From positions 19,423 to 83,422 of the forward strand of contig CAZWFS010000004.1 in assembly GCA_964633325.1 (NCBI GenBank): a stretch of 64,000 nucleotides of DNA, given 5' to 3'. Made by a program: the position numbers and the translations under genes. Shown one piece after another: positions 5,170-56,441 of this stretch (position 1 is its first letter; each line of letters starts with the position of its first letter). The notes under the pieces were generated by a model. That model searched no databases, was not told where the DNA came from, and saw only the letters and a program-made list of their open reading frames with translations. This DNA comes from an uncultured Candidatus Saccharibacteria bacterium. Lineage in GTDB: Bacteria > Patescibacteriota > Saccharimonadia > Saccharimonadales > CAZWFS01.

Positions 5170-5970
5170 CTAGTCTTCGGCTCCAGCTTTGTGCGCTAGA
5201 CGATAGGCGGCATCGATCATGCCGGAAAACTCATGATAATTAAGACTGGCGCCCCCTGCGAGCAAACCATTAATGCCCGGAACACTTAGATACGCATGAG
5301 TATTTTCAGCGTTGCTACTTCCACCGTACAATATTCGTACTCTGTCGGCGGCTTTTTTACCATAAAGTTCAGCAATATTATTTCGGATGTTTTTGACTAC
5401 TTTCTCGACTTGGTCCGGCTTGGCGATCTCGTGGTGAACATAGTTGCTGCCGCTACTTATAGCCCAGACGGGTTCATAAGCGACAACCATTTCCTCTACC
5501 TCTTCGGCCGTAAGGTTACTCAAAGCAGTCACTATCTGGTCGTGAATGACTTGGCCGGTCATCCCCTCTAGTTTTTCATGTTTAGTCTCGCCAACACAGA
5601 GTATAGGTGTGATGCCGTTGCGCATGCAGGCTGCCACTTTATCCCGCACCATATCTAAATTTTCACCGAAGACGTGTCGCCGCTCTGAATGCCCAATGAT
5701 TACATAATGCACTAAATCTCTGAGCATGGTGAATGAAATCTCGCCAGTATATGCCCCTTCGTCTTGGTGATAGGCGTTTTGGGCGGCAAGCCTGAATTTG
5801 CGCCGGTCGATCTGCATAGAAACAGGCTGCATTAGCAGGCTGCTGGGCGCCAGTACGATTTCTATATCTCGGTGTATCCTAATCCGCTCATGCAAGCGAT
5901 GCACCAAAAGACTACCCTGACTAGCGTTTAGGTGCATTTTCCAATTTCCGACGATTAATATTTTAGCCAT
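5170..5970 (-). CDS. tpiA: triosephosphate isomerase
   Basis: 266 aa with VGNWKMHLN, IGHSERR and AYEPVWAI motifs. Confidence 0.9.
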   Translation of the reverse strand: MAKILIVGNWKMHLNASQGSLLVHRLHERIRIHRDIEIVLAPSSLLMQPVSMQIDRRKFRLAAQNAYHQDEGAYTGEISFTMLRDLVHYVIIGHSERRHVFGENLDMVRDKVAACMRNGITPILCVGETKHEKLEGMTGQVIHDQIVTALSNLTAEEVEEMVVAYEPVWAISSGSNYVHHEIAKPDQVEKVVKNIRNNIAELYGKKAADRVRILYGGSSNAENTHAYLSVPGINGLLAGGASLNYHEFSGMIDAAYRLAHKAGAED

Positions 5971-6063
5971 GGCCCACTTATATACTTCTTATGCTCCAGT
6001 TTAGCACAATTCTGTTATCCATTTACCCTGCATTATCCGTAATCTATTCATAGCAATTGGTGG

Positions 6064-7353
6064 TCAAATATCCTTGTTTTGGAGGGCTTCTACTCCGGGT
6101 AACTTTTTCCCGCTCATTAGTTCTAAACTGGCGCCGCCGCCAGTTGATACGTGGTTGAACAGCTTGGTCATCTTACGCTCCTCTATGTACCCAACCGTAT
6201 CGCCGCCCCCGACTACACTAAAAGGCCGATGCCCAAATTGGCCCAGCATAGAATCAACCATCAGTTCAGTACCGTGAGCGAATGGACCTATGGGACCGTT
6301 TAGGCTATCTGTCTCTGTAACACCCATAGCCCCATTCCATACTACTGTGTTAGCTAGTTGCATCCCGCCAGAAATGAAAGCACCGGAAAACGGGCCTATA
6401 TCCAGTATCATCTCGTCTTCGGTGATGCGGGTCGCTCGACGTGGAGGTTTCTTGGGATAATTTTCGACGTCTGCTATGTGATGCGCATCCCAGTCGACTA
6501 TCCGTGTAGCAGCAGATTTGTCGATCTTATGGGCTACAATACCGTCCTGAGGCAAATAAAATATGAAGTGCTTATTTTTAGCTCTTACATGGGCCTTTTC
6601 TATAATCTCCTTGGCCAGTGGAACGTCATCCGGATCGGTAAGGCTCTTGCCTGTCTCTATACCTCTAGCAAGCAAAAATGTATTAGCCATGGCACCTCCG
6701 ACCGCTACAAAATCAGCAATATCGATGAAGCGTCGCAAGATCTCTATTTTATCGGATATCTTTGCACCACCAATAATAGTCATAAGGGGTCGATGGGGAT
6801 TTTCCATAACTTCAGTTATTACATCTACCTCTTTTTCTAACAATAGTCCTGCAACACTAGGCAGGTGTCGTGTAATTGCTTCTGTGGAGGCATGTGCCCT
6901 ATGTACTACCCCAAAACCATCTTGAACGAAAACCTCCGCAAGCTTAGCCAAACTCCGACCAAAATGATCGTCGTTTTTTTCTTCTTCCGGATGATAACGC
7001 AAGTTTTCAAGCAACAACAGCTTGCCGCCATCCAAACTGGCCGCAGCTGATTCTGCTTCAGCCCCTATACAATCTTTTACCCAAGCCACATCTAGGCCTA
7101 ATAATTTTTCCAGTCGCTTAGCAACCGGCGACAAGCTGCATTTTTTATCAAATGGCCCCTCCGGCCTTCCTAAATGCGCACAAATTATCACGCTGCATTT
7201 TTGTTCAAGTAAGTAGCGGATCGTAGGCACGGACTGTTCAATACGATAATTATCCGTGATAACTCCGTCCTCAACCGGGACATTATAATCCGCTCTAAGC
7301 AATACTCGTTTGCCCCGCAAGTCTATGTCTCTTACTGTCTTTTTCTTAAACAT
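6064..7353 (-). CDS. pgk: phosphoglycerate kinase
   Basis: 429 aa with RADYNVP, CAHLGRP and VVGGGDTV motifs. Confidence 0.9.
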   Translation of the reverse strand: MFKKKTVRDIDLRGKRVLLRADYNVPVEDGVITDNYRIEQSVPTIRYLLEQKCSVIICAHLGRPEGPFDKKCSLSPVAKRLEKLLGLDVAWVKDCIGAEAESAAASLDGGKLLLLENLRYHPEEEKNDDHFGRSLAKLAEVFVQDGFGVVHRAHASTEAITRHLPSVAGLLLEKEVDVITEVMENPHRPLMTIIGGAKISDKIEILRRFIDIADFVAVGGAMANTFLLARGIETGKSLTDPDDVPLAKEIIEKAHVRAKNKHFIFYLPQDGIVAHKIDKSAATRIVDWDAHHIADVENYPKKPPRRATRITEDEMILDIGPFSGAFISGGMQLANTVVWNGAMGVTETDSLNGPIGPFAHGTELMVDSMLGQFGHRPFSVVGGGDTVGYIEERKMTKLFNHVSTGGGASLELMSGKKLPGVEALQNKDI

Positions 7354-8894: not shown

Positions 8895-9040
8895 TGGTGA
8901 CCTCACGGAGAATCCGTCGTCGCTTATGGCTCCTTTGGGATATTCTGCGGTCTTTCTCGGAGCGAGCTCCTGTGAGAGCCCTTGATTATCGAACTCCGAT
9001 TGCCACCGTCTTGCGGTTACGGCAATCGAAATCCGGTCCT
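8895..9040 (-). pseudogene. tRNA-Glu-derived partial copy (variable loop, T arm, 3' acceptor strand, CCA) split by a 73-nt insert; the 5' half is replaced by an unrelated GC-rich hairpin
   Basis: 8895-8914 plus 8991-9005 are identical to 9086-9120 of the intact tRNA-Glu. The insert 8915-8987 is flanked by an ATC direct repeat (8912-8914, 8988-8990). Upstream on the tRNA strand lies hairpin GATTGCC...GGCAATC (8998-9027). Confidence 0.6.
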
Positions 9041-9048
9041 CATGAGCA

Positions 9049-9085
9049 GTGAAAAAGAACCATCGCCAAGATGATTCTTTTTCAC
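9049..9085 (-). terminator. hairpin abutting the 3' end of tRNA-Glu (possible terminator or processing signal)
   Basis: GTGAAAAAGAA (9049-9059) pairs with TTCTTTTTCAC (9075-9085). The U-rich 3' arm reads on the tRNA strand immediately after CCA. Confidence 0.4.
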
Positions 9086-9160
9086 TGGTGACCTCACGGA
9101 GAATCGAACTCCGATTGCCAGGATGAAAACCTGGTGTCCTAACCGTTAGACGATGAGGCC
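9086..9160 (-). tRNA. tRNA-Glu(UUC), CCA encoded
   Basis: Manual cloverleaf: GGCCTCA/TGAGGTC acceptor, anticodon arm CCAGG-TTTTCAT-CCTGG, T arm CGGAG-TTCGATT-CTCCG. 75 nt. Confidence 0.9.
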
Positions 9161-10650: not shown

Positions 10651-11961
10651 TTAACCGTCGTATTCACCATCTGCTGGACCGCTGCCTGAAGCTACTGTCG
10701 TAGTTGTAGTAGCAGAAGGAACATTGGGTGTGCGCGGTGCGGTAGTCGTGGTGGTAGGGTGAGCTCCGCCAACTGGATTATCCGAGTCATCATCTGGTGT
10801 AGGCTCCTCTTCTACGGGTGGTACCGTAGTATCGGTCGAGCCTGGACCTGGTCTTTCACCTTCATCCTGTCGCAGAGTTGTGGACGTGGTTGAGGGGGGC
10901 AGTGTGGTTGAAGTTGTAGTTGACACCGGAACAGTGGTTGAAGTTGTAGTCGTGGTTGATGGAGGAAGGGTCGTGGAAGTTGTAGTTGACACTGGAACTG
11001 TGGTTGATGTTGTAGTTGACACCGGAACAGTGGTTGAAGTTGTAGTCGTGGTTGATGGAGGAAGGGTCGTGGAAGTTGTAGTTGACACTGGAACTGTGGT
11101 TGTCGTAGTATCTTCCTGTTCATCTTCCTCCTCTTCTTCTGGTTGTTCAGCAGGAGCTTGTTCGGCTCCTCGTCGAGCGACTCTGTCCAGCTCGTTTTCG
11201 CATGGGTTCTTAAGTTCTACTATTAGTGTTTCGCCATTCTGGTTGACTATAATACTGCCGGCCAAATCAACATCAGATACATTGACCTTGGTGCCGTCAT
11301 TGCGGGTAAAGACGCCGTCCTCGACTACGTACGCGAATACGTCAGTTCCGGCTTTTAGAGTCTCGACACGCCATCGAACAACTTTACCTTGCGCATCACA
11401 GTAACTATTCTGTACAGTTACGTCTTTTTCTATGCGACGTGCTTTCATATGTTCAAAATAAACCTGGTTCTGTTGCTGACCTGCAGGAAGTATTTTCTTA
11501 AGCAGGGAGCCTTCGTCCTGCTCCATATCATCAGCGATGTAAGCAGCTTGCTGTTCGTTATTCTTTGTAAAAGATGTAAGTTCAGCTTCCGTCATGGCAG
11601 GAGCTTCAGGATTCTGCTTGTAGTGTTCGGTTACCTCAGCCTGATCCATGGGACCACAGCTACCGGAGCCAGCAGGACCGGTTACGTTTTCACGTGAGCT
11701 TACAGTTAGTCGAGCACCATCAATATTGCCGCCACCTACACCAGCAACACCGGCTTCAACGCCAGCTGGACGAGATGTTACAGAGCTTACCCCTTCAGCG
11801 ACTACTGGTGCTCCTAAAAATACTATGGCGCCTGCGGCTGCAGCCTGTAACCATAATCGAGCGGGACGCTCGGATGAATGCTGTGCTTCATCTGCAAGCT
11901 GTGCTGCTAATACGAGTTCATCAAAGCTTGGTCCACTTGATACTGCTGTTGAACTATCCAT
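10651..11961 (-). CDS. membrane-anchored or secreted protein with a Thr/Ser/Pro-rich tandem-repeat stalk
   Basis: 436 aa. Hydrophobic segment LWLQAAAAGAIVFLGAPVVA near the N-terminus. Repeats of TTTSTT(L/V)P(P/V)S. No LPXTG signal. Confidence 0.65.
   Translation of the reverse strand: MDSSTAVSSGPSFDELVLAAQLADEAQHSSERPARLWLQAAAAGAIVFLGAPVVAEGVSSVTSRPAGVEAGVAGVGGGNIDGARLTVSSRENVTGPAGSGSCGPMDQAEVTEHYKQNPEAPAMTEAELTSFTKNNEQQAAYIADDMEQDEGSLLKKILPAGQQQNQVYFEHMKARRIEKDVTVQNSYCDAQGKVVRWRVETLKAGTDVFAYVVEDGVFTRNDGTKVNVSDVDLAGSIIVNQNGETLIVELKNPCENELDRVARRGAEQAPAEQPEEEEEDEQEDTTTTTVPVSTTTSTTLPPSTTTTTSTTVPVSTTTSTTVPVSTTTSTTLPPSTTTTTSTTVPVSTTTSTTLPPSTTSTTLRQDEGERPGPGSTDTTVPPVEEEPTPDDDSDNPVGGAHPTTTTTAPRTPNVPSATTTTTVASGSGPADGEYDG
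10906..11108. repeat. in-frame tandem repeat, 96-nt unit, ~2.1 copies (encodes the Thr-rich repeats)
   Basis: TGACACCGGAACAG recurs at 10921 and 11017 (period 96 nt = 32 codons). The flanking sequence is near-identical. Confidence 0.8.
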
Positions 11962-31632: not shown

Positions 31633-31709
31633 TGGAGGGCCCACTGGGACTCGAACCCAGGACACCCTGCTTAAGAGGCAGGTGCTCTAACCAGCTGAGC
31701 TATAGGCCC
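31633..31709 (-). tRNA. tRNA-Lys(CUU), CCA encoded
   Basis: Manual cloverleaf: GGGCCTA/TGGGCCC acceptor, anticodon arm CCTGC-CTCTTAA-GCAGG, T arm CTGGG-TTCGAGT-CCCAG. 77 nt. Confidence 0.9.
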
Positions 31710-31733
31710 TTGTTACTAATTGTAATTGATGAT

Positions 31734-31910
31734 GGGGTTTGAGCCCAGGGATAAACCCTCGACCCACCGGTAATTTTCTGTAAAAAATTCCGTCGGGCCC
31801 GCCTCATCTCGGTCGCGTTCGCGAGCCAGGCTTCCGGCCTTGCGAACTGCCACCGGCAGTTCTCACCCTACTTAAGAGGCAGGTGCTCTAACCAGCTGAG
31901 CTACTGGCCC
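31734..31910 (-). pseudogene. chimeric tRNA-Lys(CUU)-derived copy with a ~99-nt GC-rich insert after the anticodon arm and a degenerate T arm and acceptor
   Basis: 31866-31910 gives an intact-looking acceptor 5' strand, D arm and anticodon arm (GGGCCAG..CCTGC-CTCTTAA-GTAGG). The insert is bounded by CACC repeats (31765-31768, 31864-31867). The remnant TGGGT-CGAG...TCCC-TGGGCTC resembles the T arm and 3' acceptor, but there is no proper 3' acceptor or CCA. Confidence 0.6.
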
Positions 31911-31969
31911 GGAAAGGCAAGGGGAGTTTAACAGTTTGTATCTGTTTATTCAATGTTAGACTGGTTACT

Positions 31970-39014: not shown

Positions 39015-39273
39015 AAGAATTTTTGTAAAATAATGCGGTTTGAGATGAAACTCGACCTGTCCTTCCTGCCTGGCCTTCTTGTCAGAAAGACAAGAGGTTC
39101 GGAAAGACAGGCGGGACAACGTAAAGGAGGCGTACTTTTAAGGTACGGTGGTGTACGCAGCAGCGCAGGTAAATAGATGCTTGCATGTATTTACCGAGCA
39201 GCGAGGGAAGATGCGGAGCAGATGTGCGAAGCGCAGATTTTCGCCCGAAATGTGTTGTTTTACAAAAATTCTT
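39015..39273. repeat. long imperfect-palindrome intergenic element, copy B (colinear with the reverse complement of copy C plus two extra hairpins)
   Basis: A perfect 16-bp closing stem: AAGAATTTTTGTAAAA (39015-39030) pairs with TTTTACAAAAATTCTT (39258-39273). The apical hairpin is CGTAC...GTACG (39130-39146). Blocks TGCGGTTTGAGATGAAACTCG and TTTTCGCCCGAAATGTG match copy C at 18/21 and 16/17. Confidence 0.7.
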
Positions 39274-56175: not shown

Positions 56176-56252
56176 TGGTCGGGGTGAGAGGACTCGAACC
56201 TCCGACCTCCGCGTCCCAAACGCGGCGCGCTAGCCAACTGCGCCACACCCCG
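56176..56252 (-). tRNA. tRNA-Pro(UGG), CCA encoded
   Basis: Manual cloverleaf: CGGGGTG/CACCCCG acceptor, anticodon arm CCGCG-TTTGGGA-CGCGG, T arm GGAGG-TTCGAGT-CCTCT. 77 nt. Confidence 0.9.
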
Positions 56253-56280
56253 ATATATATGTAAAATCATTGTAAAGGTT

Positions 56281-56441
56281 CGAGGATTATTTATCGAGGA
56301 CTCGGCCACCTTCGGCTCCGGAACTTCGCGATTGACAACCAGTTGTTGTCGGAAGGTTCCCTTGCGAAGTGCCACCGGCACTTCTCACCTCCGACCTCCG
56401 CGTCCCAAACGCGGGCGTTTGTCCTACTGCGCCACACCCCG
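56281..56441 (-). pseudogene. chimeric tRNA-Pro(UGG)-derived copy with a ~79-nt GC-rich insert in the T arm and no 3' acceptor strand
   Basis: 56388-56441 matches the intact gene from the acceptor 5' strand to the 5' T-stem strand GGAGG. The insert is bounded by CACC repeats (56307-56310, 56386-56389). A remnant CGAGTCCTCG lies at 56295-56304. A 30-nt block (56360-56389) is shared with the Lys chimera. Confidence 0.6.

What the first reader, a model, noticed from the sequence alone, without database searches (positions are those of the whole stretch)
31633..31910. tRNA-Lys(CUU) preceded by a chimeric tRNA-Lys copy with a ~99-nt insert of the same family
On the minus strand, intact tRNA-Lys(CUU) lies at 31633-31709.

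A second copy starts at 31910. It has its own acceptor 5' strand (GGGCCAG rather than GGGCCTA), an identical D arm and a complete CUU anticodon arm (CCTGC-CTCTTAA-GTAGG, with one G-U pair). After GTG of the variable region it is interrupted. The insert starts with the same 30-nt hairpin block as the Pro chimera (31838-31867) and is bounded by CACC repeats (31765-31768, 31864-31867).

Beyond the insert there is a decayed T arm and 3' acceptor: TGGGT-CGAG..TCCC-TGGGCTC, compared with TGGGTTCGAGTCCCAGTGGGCCC in the intact gene.

The same element has therefore landed at comparable positions (variable loop / T arm) in two different tRNA families. The insert also contains TTTTACAGAAAATT, which nearly matches the closing stem of palindromic element B (TTTTACAAAAATT). 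This hints at modular relationships between the repeat families.
Basis: seen in the sequence. Interest (0 to 1): 0.65.

Follow-up and report, generated by a model that had tools for sequence, protein, structure and literature searches.

The report
Structured insertion element in tRNA fragments
The "chimeric tRNA-Lys" is a dead 5' piece of a tRNA gene that carries one copy of a previously undescribed, strongly structured ~87-105-nt insertion element. The element is found in well over 100 Saccharibacteria genomes, almost always inside tRNA-gene fragments that sit next to an intact copy of the same tRNA.

Summary
The sequence features are real. tRNA-Lys(CUU) at 31633-31709(-) is intact. Upstream, a second copy keeps the 5' acceptor strand, the D arm and the anticodon arm (31910-31865), then runs into a 104-nt element, "E" (31866-31763). 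Its first 30 nt recur after a tRNA-Pro fragment (56360-56389) with two compensatory changes.

E is a family, not a one-off. An exact-motif scan found it in about 80 species-level Saccharibacteria MAGs and in 74 metagenome stretches. Its three-hairpin fold has strong covariation (96% paired; 21 of 29 pairs compensatory; G.U far more common than A.C). It always lies in the sense orientation, follows RGGT, and has no target duplication. It sits in T, D, anticodon or variable loops of truncated tRNA copies next to the intact gene.

The same 87-nt element sits in frame at one site of three divergent IleRS genes. It is absent from the closest homologue. It also occurs in a 23S-5S spacer.

Rfam and literature searches found no match. 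My best reading is a selfish, site-specific, structure-dependent insertion element of unknown mobilisation chemistry. The Lys chimera cannot give a functional tRNA.

The parts
31633..31709 (-). Intact, presumably functional tRNA-Lys(CUU), with encoded CCA.
   Evidence: ARAGORN; Rfam tRNA 69.4 bits.
31865..31910 (-). Dead 5' fragment of a tRNA-Lys(CUU) gene: acceptor 5' strand GGGCCAG, D arm, complete anticodon arm and the start of the variable loop (tRNA positions 1-46). It keeps the acceptor sequence typical of other Saccharibacteria tRNA-Lys (GGGCCAG...CTGGCCC).
   Evidence: Sequence. Alignment to the intact gene at 42/45. Not called by ARAGORN. Comparison with L033 and L004.
31763..31866 (-). 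Element E, type 2 variant (104 nt). It begins with GT. Hairpin 1 with its GCAAGG tail spans 31864-31838 (GAGAACUGCC-GGU-GGCAGUUCGC, then AAGG). Hairpin 2 is about 31837-31802. CGGG is 31801-31798. Hairpin 3, with a nested AT-rich hairpin, is 31797-31763.
   Evidence: Covariance model R1, 43.9 bits, E=7e-10. Type-2 alignment and consensus fold, 12/21 pairs compensatory.
31734..31762 (-). Post-element remnant. TCGAG (31762-31758) continues the T loop. GGTTTATCC is a spacer. CTGGGCTCAAACCCC (31748-31734) is an antisense-like copy of the uninterrupted T arm (the fold-back segment).
   Evidence: The T arm is near-palindromic, so this copy alone is ambiguous. The antisense reading rests on the family pattern (for example L083, L087, L097, L086).
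31719..31724 (-). TACAAT, the likely -10 box for the intact tRNA-Lys. It lies in the spacer between the fold-back and the gene.
   Evidence: Sequence only. TAnAAT boxes recur at this position in other pattern-B loci. The strict consensus scan did not report it.
31925..31953 (-). Possible promoter of the chimera transcript (TTGAAT, 17 nt, TAAACT, with TGT before the -10).
   Evidence: Inference from sequence. It scores 8/12, below the scan threshold.
56387..56441 (-). Dead 5' fragment of tRNA-Pro(UGG), tRNA positions 1-55, reaching T54 of the T loop.
   Evidence: 46/54 identity to the intact gene at 56176-56252.
56305..56388 (-). Element E, type 1 (canonical three-hairpin form), inserted in the T loop of the tRNA-Pro fragment.
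   Evidence: Covariance model R1, 84.1 bits, E=1e-20.
56269..56304 (-). Post-element remnant at the Pro locus: CGAGTCCTC (T-loop 3' part and T stem, 56304-56296), an AT spacer, antisense CCTCGAACC (56285-56277), then TACAAT (56274-56269) ahead of the intact tRNA-Pro(UGG).

Best explanation
E is a small, non-autonomous, selfish insertion element. It is 87 nt in its canonical form and 104 nt in the Lys copy. Its three-hairpin fold is maintained on the sense strand.

E inserts in one orientation, immediately after a purine-rich RGG(GT) motif, without target duplication. That motif is supplied by the T loop (G52-G53-T54), by the D loop (G18-G19-U20), and by some anticodon and variable loops of tRNA genes. 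Insertion there destroys the tRNA. The copies that persist therefore sit in redundant, truncated tRNA copies linked to an intact gene.

Two arrangements are seen:
- Pattern B (both copies in this window): 5' fragment, then E, then the intact gene.
- Pattern A: intact gene, then a 3' fragment carrying E.

Shown: family membership, structure, orientation, target motif, the loss of the 3' acceptor strand, multi-locus spread within genomes, and insertion polymorphism in IleRS.

Inferred: selfishness, lethality of insertion into a sole tRNA gene, and the transposition chemistry. The chemistry might involve a single-stranded DNA or an RNA intermediate recognised by an enzyme encoded elsewhere.

The antisense fold-back lies at a fixed distance from E. 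I take it as a footprint of the insertion or rescue event, for example template switching between an E-bearing and an E-less copy. It also restores a helix that closes E. Its origin is unexplained.

The Lys chimera is probably transcribed from the old tRNA promoter, but it cannot mature into a tRNA.
For: (1) Family. The motif GAGAA-N4-CGGTG-N4-TTCGCAAGG gave 103 stretches in 80 species-representative genomes, nearly all Saccharibacteria. It gave 74 metagenome stretches. The covariance model finds 133 copies in 100 loci and exactly two in the window.

(2) Structure. 96.2% of cells are paired, against 27-49% when partners are slid. The covariation score is 0.537 against 0.09 or less. No shuffle of 500 reached it. 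21 of 29 pairs are compensatory.

(3) Strand. G.U 84 against A.C 11, with one G.U kept in 58/67 copies. Every copy with a recognisable tRNA flank is in sense orientation.

(4) Target. The 4 nt before GAGAA are GGGT, AGGT or GAGT in 128/152 copies. G is at -2 in 150/152 and T at -1 in 146/152.

(5) Not an intron of working tRNAs. Removing E restores a complete tRNA in only 2 clear cases of 108 (L072, L069).

(6) Linkage. About 40 pattern-A and about 36 pattern-B units each lie next to an intact tRNA of the same type. The duplicated part is often 100% identical.

(7) Mobility.
- Near-identical E copies occur in different tRNA genes of one genome (0.91 and 0.97 identity).
- E copies in the same tRNA across species show no excess similarity (0.634 against 0.633).
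- Nested E-in-E occurs, and several E can sit in one dead fragment.
- E occurs in a 23S-5S spacer hairpin and in intergenic sites.

(8) IleRS.
- An exact 87-nt in-frame insertion sits at one site in three genes.
- It is absent from the 83%-identical homologue and from most others.
- The element is 87-92% identical between hosts, with third codon positions 79-86% identical. The 60 nt upstream are 73-75% identical, with third positions 30-40%.
- Pairing in hairpin 1 is kept by compensatory changes.
- The covariance model scores these copies 26-34 bits.
Against: - No transposase, reverse transcriptase or other partner protein was identified. No autonomous copy was found.
- A crude tblastn with IS200/IS605 TnpA sequences recalled from memory found nothing in 1.26 Mb of flanking DNA.
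- The hairpins at the two ends of E are unlike each other. This differs from IS200/IS605 and REP ends.
- The regular fold-back and the partial duplications are not produced by any known simple transposition pathway. Hairpin centres lie 9-15.5 nt upstream or 6.5-11.5 nt downstream of E. My explanation of them is conjecture.
- Strong purifying selection on structure, a conserved apical loop in hairpin 2, and retention in an essential gene could equally mean that E RNA does something useful.
- No filled and empty alleles of the window's own Lys locus could be compared. The nearest relatives are about 74% identical in a neighbouring protein, and synteny is not conserved.
- The motif search was anchored on hairpin 1, so family statistics are biased towards conserved copies.
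Confidence: 0.55

Rival explanations
1. E is a host-beneficial structured non-coding RNA, for example a protein-binding or processing module. It uses tRNA promoters, terminators and tRNA-derived helices as an expression and processing scaffold. The antisense segments form a closing or processing stalk (RNase III-like substrate) that releases E.
For: There is strong sense-strand covariation with a conserved G.U. The junction nucleotides and the hairpin-2 apical loop are invariant. A closing helix for E is always preserved, either by the T stem or by the antisense segment. The element persists across about 80 species.
Against: Copy number and location vary between genomes, and E is not tied to any one tRNA. 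There are nested copies and pile-ups in dead fragments. E sits in frame inside a protein-coding gene with a homing-like sporadic distribution. Copies within one genome differ by up to 50% in hairpins 2 and 3. All of this is typical of selfish repeats.
Confidence: 0.2
2. E is an intervening sequence or intron that is removed from transcripts, either by self-cleavage and ligation or with protein help. Host genes (tRNA, IleRS mRNA, rRNA spacer) would then stay functional. The truncated tRNA hosts would be later decay products.
For: E lies in sense orientation in transcribed genes only. Two complete tRNAs carry E in the T loop, and one of them (L072, tRNA-Gly GCC) has a good promoter and no second copy within 8 kb. 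E begins GUGAG and ends AG or AC. CPR bacteria are known, from published work, for insertions in rRNA genes.
Against: About 98% of tRNA-associated copies lack one exon, so splicing cannot yield a tRNA. There is no match to group I, group II or any Rfam ribozyme at E<=10. At 87 nt it is far below known self-splicing introns. In IleRS it is a stop-free multiple of three in all three hosts, so it needs no splicing. For the window's Lys copy this reading is excluded, because the 3' acceptor strand is absent.
Confidence: 0.1
3. E spreads at the RNA level. A reverse transcriptase copying tRNA stalls at loop or modified positions and switches template to E RNA. The chimeric cDNA then recombines beside the tRNA gene. 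The antisense E-less segments are cDNA of the mature tRNA.
For: Insertion points coincide with tRNA loops (T loop, D loop, positions about 25-26, 37-38 and 46). Orientation is strictly sense. In pattern A the duplicated fragment ends exactly at CCA, and the antisense copy starts with TGG, the complement of CCA. The terminators after the two copies differ, as expected if the duplication boundary is the mature 3' end.
Against: The RGGT preference, together with insertion in IleRS, a spacer hairpin and intergenic sites, fits a sequence motif as well as tRNA structure does. Tandem arrays include upstream promoter sequence, which implies DNA-level duplication (L028 and L059). I could not derive the observed order of sense and antisense segments from a simple cDNA model. 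No reverse transcriptase was found.
Confidence: 0.12
4. The locus is an ordinary tandem tRNA-Lys duplication undergoing random decay, or the remnant of an integrase-mediated island at a tRNA att site. The similarity to the Pro locus would be fortuitous.
For: tRNA genes are classical integration sites that leave partial direct repeats (established knowledge).
Against: The insert is a conserved family with significant covariation in more than 150 independent contigs. The duplicated part here is the 5' end, not the 3' end. No integrase or island lies between the copies. The element also occurs outside tRNA genes.
Confidence: 0.02

Closest known systems
Rickettsia palindromic elements (RPE; Ogata et al. 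2000, from my own knowledge)
   Same: Short (about 100-150 nt), structured, multi-copy selfish repeats in a reduced-genome bacterial lineage. They insert in frame into protein-coding genes and also into stable-RNA genes, and they lack an encoded transposase.
   Different: RPEs fold as one long palindrome and occur in both orientations. E has three unlike hairpins, strict sense orientation and an RGGT target. It has an overwhelming association with tRNA-gene fragments, with an antisense fold-back and a linked intact gene. There is no sequence relation, and the lineage (Saccharibacteria/CPR) is different.
Transposing tRNA introns of Thermoproteales archaea (BHB introns at non-canonical positions; Fujishima et al. 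2010, from my own knowledge)
   Same: Related short inserts are found at several positions (D, anticodon, variable and T regions) of many different tRNA genes in one genome.
   Different: The archaeal introns sit in complete genes and are spliced by the BHB endonuclease. E sits in truncated genes in bacteria, and no spliced product is possible in about 98% of cases.
Bacterial group I introns in tRNA anticodon loops
   Same: Structured RNA elements that interrupt bacterial tRNA genes in the sense orientation. Their distribution is sporadic and homing-like.
   Different: They are 200 nt or longer with a catalytic core, lie only in the anticodon loop, and have intact exons. E is 87 nt and gives no Rfam Intron_gpI hit.
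IS200/IS605-derived PATEs and REP/RAYT elements (single-strand HUH transposition)
   Same: Small, hairpin-rich and orientation-specific. They insert 3' of a short motif without target duplication, and their structure is read on one strand. REPs start with GTAG or GTGG next to a hairpin, which resembles GTGAG plus hairpin 1.
   Different: The end hairpins of E are dissimilar. No TnpA or RAYT was found nearby (a weak test). These elements are not known to sit in tRNA loops or to be accompanied by partial target duplications with antisense segments.
Genomic-island att remnants at tRNA genes (Williams 2002, from my own knowledge)
   Same: An intact tRNA with a nearby partial copy. T loops and anticodon loops are known crossover sublocations.
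   Different: Those leave 3'-end direct repeats flanking kilobases of island DNA with an integrase. Here the partial copy may be the 5' or the 3' end, lies within 70-170 nt, and is interrupted by a conserved 87-nt structured element.
Intervening sequences in rRNA genes and spacers, including CPR rRNA insertions
   Same: Short structured inserts in stable-RNA operons. One E copy sits in a 23S-5S spacer hairpin.
   Different: IVS are helix extensions removed by RNase III, and they are not a conserved cross-gene family. E has a fixed three-hairpin core and also invades tRNA and protein genes.

Membership tests
tRNA (functional gene) - for the upstream Lys copy | Complete cloverleaf: a 7-bp acceptor stem with a matching 3' strand, and a T arm with a GTTCRA loop. 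| tested here: not met
   ARAGORN does not call it. The Rfam hit at 34.6 bits pairs GGGCCAG with CTGGCTC, which belongs to E hairpin 2. There is no T arm and no CTGGCCC or NCCA downstream.
Group I intron | Conserved catalytic core (P3-P9), size 200 nt or more, intact exons, and for tRNA hosts an anticodon-loop position. | tested here: not met
   No Intron_gpI match at E<=10. E is 87-104 nt. It lies mostly in the T loop. Exons are truncated.
Group II intron | Domains I-VI with catalytic domain V. Boundaries GUGYG...AY. | tested here: not met
   No group II Rfam model matched. E has only three short hairpins. The 5' GUGAG resembles GUGYG, but no domain V-like hairpin is present.
Known small self-cleaving ribozymes (hammerhead, twister, twister-sister, pistol, hatchet, HDV-like, hairpin) | A match to the family consensus structure and sequence. 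| tested here: not met
   Rfam 15 cmscan with permissive thresholds on both variants gave only chance-level hits. Catalysis itself is not testable here.
Archaeal-type BHB tRNA intron | A bulge-helix-bulge at the exon-intron junctions, complete exons, and a splicing endonuclease in the genome. | tested here: not met
   Exons are incomplete in about 98% of copies. The BHB geometry and the presence of an endonuclease were not examined.
MITE (cut-and-paste, DDE type) | Terminal inverted repeats and a target-site duplication. Both orientations occur. | tested here: not met
   The ends GTGAGAA... and ...GGTGAS are direct repeats, not inverted. Filled versus empty IleRS alleles show no duplication. 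Orientation is always sense.
IS200/IS605 PATE or REP-RAYT element | (a) No target duplication, and insertion 3' of a short motif in one orientation. | tested here: met
   RGGT precedes E in 128/152 copies. No TSD. Orientation is fixed.
IS200/IS605 PATE or REP-RAYT element | (b) Similar subterminal hairpins at both ends, recognised by one Y1 transposase, and a cognate TnpA or RAYT in the genome. | tested here: inconclusive
   Hairpin 1 and hairpin 3 are unlike each other. tblastn with TnpA sequences recalled from memory found nothing below E=0.1 in 1.26 Mb of flanks. Whole genomes were not searched.
Integrase att-site remnant at a tRNA gene | A direct repeat of the tRNA 3' part flanking an island that encodes a tyrosine or serine recombinase. 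| tested here: not met
   In the window the repeat is the 5' part. Only 155 nt separate the start of E from the intact gene. No ORF of that kind lies between or beside them.
RPE-like selfish palindromic repeat | A multi-copy short structured repeat, inserted in frame in protein genes and in RNA genes, with no encoded enzyme. | tested here: met
   This is a resemblance in behaviour only. Sequence, fold, orientation rule and host lineage all differ, so E is not a member of the RPE families.

The most novel reading that the evidence does not exclude
E defines a new class of mobile structured element whose own insertion pathway creates a partial duplication of the invaded tRNA gene. The pathway also creates an antisense, E-less copy of the target at a fixed distance of about 7-15 nt. 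This keeps an intact tRNA beside every insertion. That would be a transposition or rescue mechanism, single-strand or RNA-templated, with no known precedent. Alternatively, the three-hairpin RNA is a new catalytic or guide RNA that homes to RGGT sites in tRNA, rRNA-spacer and mRNA genes of CPR bacteria.
Probability: 0.3. Interest if true: 0.9.

Novelty: new variant of a known kind. Interest (0 to 1): 0.78.

Why it matters
Saccharibacteria and other CPR bacteria have tiny genomes with single-copy tRNA genes, yet they tolerate a family of elements that specifically hits tRNA loops. If the picture holds, it gives:

1. An unrecognised, widespread RNA or DNA structural family, suitable for an Rfam entry. 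It explains many "pseudo-tRNA" and odd tRNA-like hits in CPR MAGs and will improve tRNA annotation.
2. A natural system in which insertion into an essential RNA gene is coupled to preservation of an intact copy. The regular sense/antisense footprint makes the mechanism directly testable.
3. An example of homing-like spread of an 87-nt element into a protein gene (IleRS) without an endonuclease.
4. Markers for strain-level evolution in a phylum where few mobile elements are known.

Tried and rejected
- **Rfam.** I ran it at gathering thresholds on the whole window and at E<=10 on both variants. Only chance-level hits appeared.
- **MFE folding.** Folding the whole chimeras was uninformative (z = -3.6 for Lys, -0.9 for Pro), so I moved to comparative analysis.
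- **Orthologous-locus comparison.** I used the neighbouring 181-aa protein. The best relatives are only about 74% identical and synteny is not conserved, so no empty or filled allele of the Lys locus could be obtained.
- **Intron test.** Removing E computationally and re-running ARAGORN restored a tRNA in only 2 clear cases of 108.
- **Viral contigs.** No copy was found.
- **Partner enzyme.** tblastn with IS200/IS605 TnpA sequences recalled from memory found nothing significant. No conserved neighbouring gene was seen around non-tRNA copies; the neighbours were uvrC, dprA/topA, jag and 5S rRNA.
- **Literature.** Four full-text searches (Saccharibacteria/tRNA/intron; Patescibacteria/T-loop/insertion; MITE/palindromic/TM7; partial duplication/intervening sequence) returned nothing that describes this element.
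- **Link to element B.** Rejected.
- **Vertical inheritance.** I tested whether E copies cluster by tRNA locus. They do not.
- **Origin of the fold-back.** I tried to derive the sense/antisense architecture from simple models: hairpin-capped breaks, snap-back cDNA, integrase crossover, and TnpB-like guide logic. None reproduces all features, so its origin stays unexplained.
Full report
**1. What is in the window**

On the minus strand, ARAGORN and Rfam confirm an intact tRNA-Lys(CUU) at 31633-31709. A second copy starts at 31910. It has its own acceptor 5' strand (GGGCCAG), an identical D arm and a complete CUU anticodon arm. It matches tRNA positions 1-46 of the intact gene at 42/45.

After GGGTG the tRNA sequence stops and a different sequence begins. 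Its first 30 nt (31838-31867) recur at 56360-56389, directly after a tRNA-Pro(UGG) 5' fragment. The only two differences are a compensatory C-G to G-C swap in a hairpin. No such match is expected by chance.

The whole-window Rfam scan reports a weak tRNA hit at 31822-31910 (34.6 bits). Its "3' acceptor strand", CTGGCTC, is part of the insert's own second hairpin.

**2. The insert is a member of a large family**

I scanned one genome per GTDB species for GAGAA-N4-CGGTG-N4-TTCGCAAGG. This gave 103 stretches in 80 genomes, almost all Saccharibacteria MAGs, with up to 7 stretches in one genome. A metagenome scan added 74 stretches. A viral scan found none.

The canonical element is "E type 1", 87 nt including a leading GT. 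Sixty-seven distinct copies align almost without gaps. They fold into three hairpins joined by invariant GCAAGG and CGGG linkers.

On that alignment:
- 96.2% of cells are standard pairs, against 27-49% when the partners are slid.
- 21 of 29 pairs show double (compensatory) changes.
- The covariation score is 0.537, against 0.09 or less in the slid controls.
- No shuffle out of 500 reaches the observed values.

G.U outnumbers A.C by 84 to 11, and one G.U pair is kept in 58 of 67 copies. The fold is therefore read on the sense strand, as RNA or as sense single-stranded DNA. It is not a symmetric DNA cruciform.

A covariance model built from the alignment finds exactly two copies in the window. 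The Pro copy is at 56305-56388 (84 bits). The Lys copy is at 31763-31866 (44 bits). The model finds 133 copies in the first 100 loci.

The Lys copy belongs to a "type 2" variant. It has the same hairpin 1, a different hairpin 2 (CCGGAAGC...CUGAGG) and an extra AT-rich hairpin in the loop of hairpin 3. Twelve such copies give 12 of 21 compensatory pairs.

Rfam 15 has no matching family for either variant, even at E<=10. Four full-text literature searches found no description.

**3. Context rules**

E is always in the same orientation as the tRNA sequence that flanks it. The four bases before GAGAA are GGGT, AGGT or GAGT in 128 of 152 non-redundant copies.

The insertion points fall at these tRNA positions:
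- the T loop, after G53-T54, which is the majority;
- the D loop;
- around positions 25-26;
- the anticodon loop, after positions 37-38;
- the variable loop, as in the window's Lys copy.

Removing E restores a complete tRNA in only two clear cases out of 108. These are L072, a tRNA-Gly(GCC) with a good promoter and no second copy within 8 kb, and L069.

Otherwise E sits in a truncated tRNA copy beside an intact gene of the same type.
- About 36 copies are "pattern B": 5' fragment, E, roughly 110-170 nt, then the intact tRNA. Both window copies are pattern B.
- About 40 copies are "pattern A": intact tRNA, terminator hairpin, then a 3' fragment with E in its T loop, ending in CCA.

The duplicated parts are often 100% identical to the intact gene.

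Dead fragments can collect several E copies, and E can nest in E at its own internal CGGGT. Units can form arrays (L085).

**4. The antisense fold-back**

Next to every E-bearing fragment lies an antisense copy of the uninterrupted tRNA segment.

In pattern B the tRNA continues for about 8-11 nt after E. It then turns back on itself across the insertion point. For example, L083 reads GGGGT[E]TCGAATCCCTG-GATTCGAACCCC.

In pattern A the antisense copy runs from TGG (the complement of CCA) back to the variable region. It is followed by about 12 nt of sense sequence and then E.

The hairpin centres cluster 6.5-11.5 nt downstream of E in pattern B and 9-15.5 nt upstream of E in pattern A. This holds regardless of tRNA class.

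This changes the reading of the window. A TACAAT box then precedes the intact gene. The T arm is nearly palindromic, so this single copy is ambiguous. The family pattern decides the reading.

**5. Evidence for mobility**

E copies in different tRNA genes of one genome can be nearly identical. L009 (Pro) and L082 (Leu) share 0.91 identity, and L042 and L050 share 0.97. E copies in the same tRNA and pattern in different species are no more alike than random pairs (0.634 against 0.633).

E also occurs outside tRNA genes. It is found in the apical part of a hairpin in a 23S-5S spacer. It is also found after small GGGG-T hairpins in intergenic regions next to uvrC, dprA/topA and jag.

The strongest case is IleRS. 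An exact 87-nt copy (GTGAG...GTAAG, 29 codons, no stop) lies at the same site, RLKG|...|ED, in three divergent IleRS genes: L096, L108 and L109. It is absent from the closest homologue of L096 (83% amino-acid identity) and from most other homologues.

The comparison of filled and empty alleles shows no target duplication, and it shows that the GT belongs to the element.

Between the three hosts the element is 87-92% identical, with third codon positions 79-86% identical. The 60 nt upstream are 73-75% identical, with third positions 30-40%. Hairpin 1 stays paired through compensatory changes that alter the encoded amino acids. The covariance model recognises all three copies.

This is the signature of a laterally spreading, site-specific element, or of very strong nucleotide-level constraint.

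**6. Interpretation**

The evidence best fits a selfish, structure-dependent, orientation- and site-specific insertion element.
- Insertion into a tRNA loop inactivates that copy, because exons are almost never complete.
- E therefore survives where an intact copy is linked.
- The window's Lys and Pro chimeras are such dead 5' fragments.

The Lys fragment retains the acceptor sequence typical of other Saccharibacteria tRNA-Lys (GGGCCAG...CTGGCCC; compare L033 and L004). The functional copy has since changed both strands (GGGCCUA...UGGGCCC).

How E moves is not shown. Single-strand HUH-type transposition fits three features: a motif at the 5' side, no duplication and strand specificity. It does not fit the dissimilar end hairpins, and no transposase was seen (a weak test). 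An RNA-level route through reverse-transcriptase template switching fits the loop positions and the exact CCA/TGG boundaries, but I could not derive the observed segment order from it.

The fixed-distance antisense segment and the partial duplication are unexplained by any known pathway. I regard them as a footprint of the insertion or rescue event that also provides a closing helix for E.

A host-beneficial RNA function cannot be excluded. It is disfavoured by the variable copy number and location, by nesting, and by the in-frame invasion of a protein gene.

**7. Other points**

The TTTTACAGAAAATT hairpin in the Lys copy is a variable, covarying sub-hairpin. 'Element B' is a separate 19-nt inverted repeat at 39015-39033 and 39255-39273. 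No modular link is supported.

A third unit of the same architecture follows tRNA-Glu(UUC) in the window, but it carries a different structured insert ("F" family). This shows that the tRNA-fragment platform is used by more than one element.

**8. Limits**

- The family was seeded with an exact hairpin-1 motif.
- All genomes are MAGs, although they include long-read and closed assemblies.
- No close relative of the window's organism exists in the searched collections.
- No expression data were available.

Noticed in passing
window 8895-9085 (minus strand), downstream of tRNA-Glu(UUC) 9086-9160: A third unit of the same architecture, with a different insert. The order is: terminator hairpin (9085-9047); an antisense-like T-arm segment (about 9046-9021); sense GGCAATCGGAGTTCGAT (9004-8988); a 74-nt structured insert of an 'F' family (8987-8914, core CACAGGAGCTCGCTCCGAG); then ATTCTCCGTGAGGTCACCA (8913-8895), which is the exact 3' end of tRNA-Glu. 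Model R1 does not match it. Related F inserts lie in the T loops of 3' fragments in L014, L020, L039, L049, L077, L098 and L101.
   Followed up: partly
L096 6360-6446; L108 179-265; L109 1501-1587; empty site in L110 near position 85: An 87-nt E copy is inserted in frame in the anticodon-binding region of IleRS in three divergent genes (encoded peptide VRKSGGLSQGVASNSDARKNGVNLNSSCK). It is absent from the closest homologue. The element is much more conserved than the host gene at synonymous sites.
   Followed up: yes
L175, minus-strand view about 470-560: A type-2-like E copy sits at the tip of an 18-bp hairpin in the spacer between the 23S rRNA 3' end and the 5S rRNA of an unidentified CPR-like organism. 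Similar copies (hairpin 1 GAAAGCGC/GCGCTTTC) lie in intergenic regions of L134, L140, L143 and L176/L181.
   Followed up: partly
L045 (minus-strand view 5685-6450); L031, L047, L051: One tRNA-Leu(TAG) locus carries E in both the anticodon loop and the T loop of an upstream dead copy, plus a downstream 3' fragment. It has nested E-in-E insertions at the internal CGGGT of hairpin 3. E therefore carries a copy of its own target.
   Followed up: partly
L069 (minus-strand view 5175-5430); L083, L066: Two sequence types of tRNA-Gln(CUG) exist in Saccharibacteria, with acceptor TGGCGAG or TGGGGAT. In some genomes E sits in one type and in other genomes in the other. This suggests that pre-existing paralogues provide the redundancy E needs. 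The E-bearing L069 copy also has a small hairpin insert in its D loop.
   Followed up: no
window 39015-39033 and 39255-39273: A 19-nt inverted repeat (95% complementary) with 221 nt between the arms. It is unrelated to E.
   Followed up: partly
window 10886-11077: Tandem repeats of 30 and 36 nt (four overlapping 96-nt copies, 60-92% identical), probably a repetitive coding segment.
   Followed up: no
window 1-64000: Cumulative GC skew falls monotonically across the whole window, so the minus strand is probably the leading strand. All three insert-bearing tRNA loci (Glu, Lys, Pro-UGG) are on the minus strand. The three plus-strand tRNAs carry none. The sample is too small to be significant.
   Followed up: no
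L070 (NZ_JBAZVP010000061.1), L094/L095 (JAHWKM01): These contigs are labelled Mucilaginibacter sp. and Candidatus Parcubacteria. They carry typical Saccharibacteria-style tRNA-Lys or tRNA-Ser units with E. This suggests mis-binning or mis-labelling, or a wider host range within CPR.
   Followed up: no
L096 3498-7118: The E-bearing IleRS ORF is 1206 aa. It appears to contain a further large insertion resembling a histidine-phosphatase/phosphoglycerate-mutase-like segment (…NTYFAMRHGQSQSN…). This was judged by eye only.
   Followed up: no
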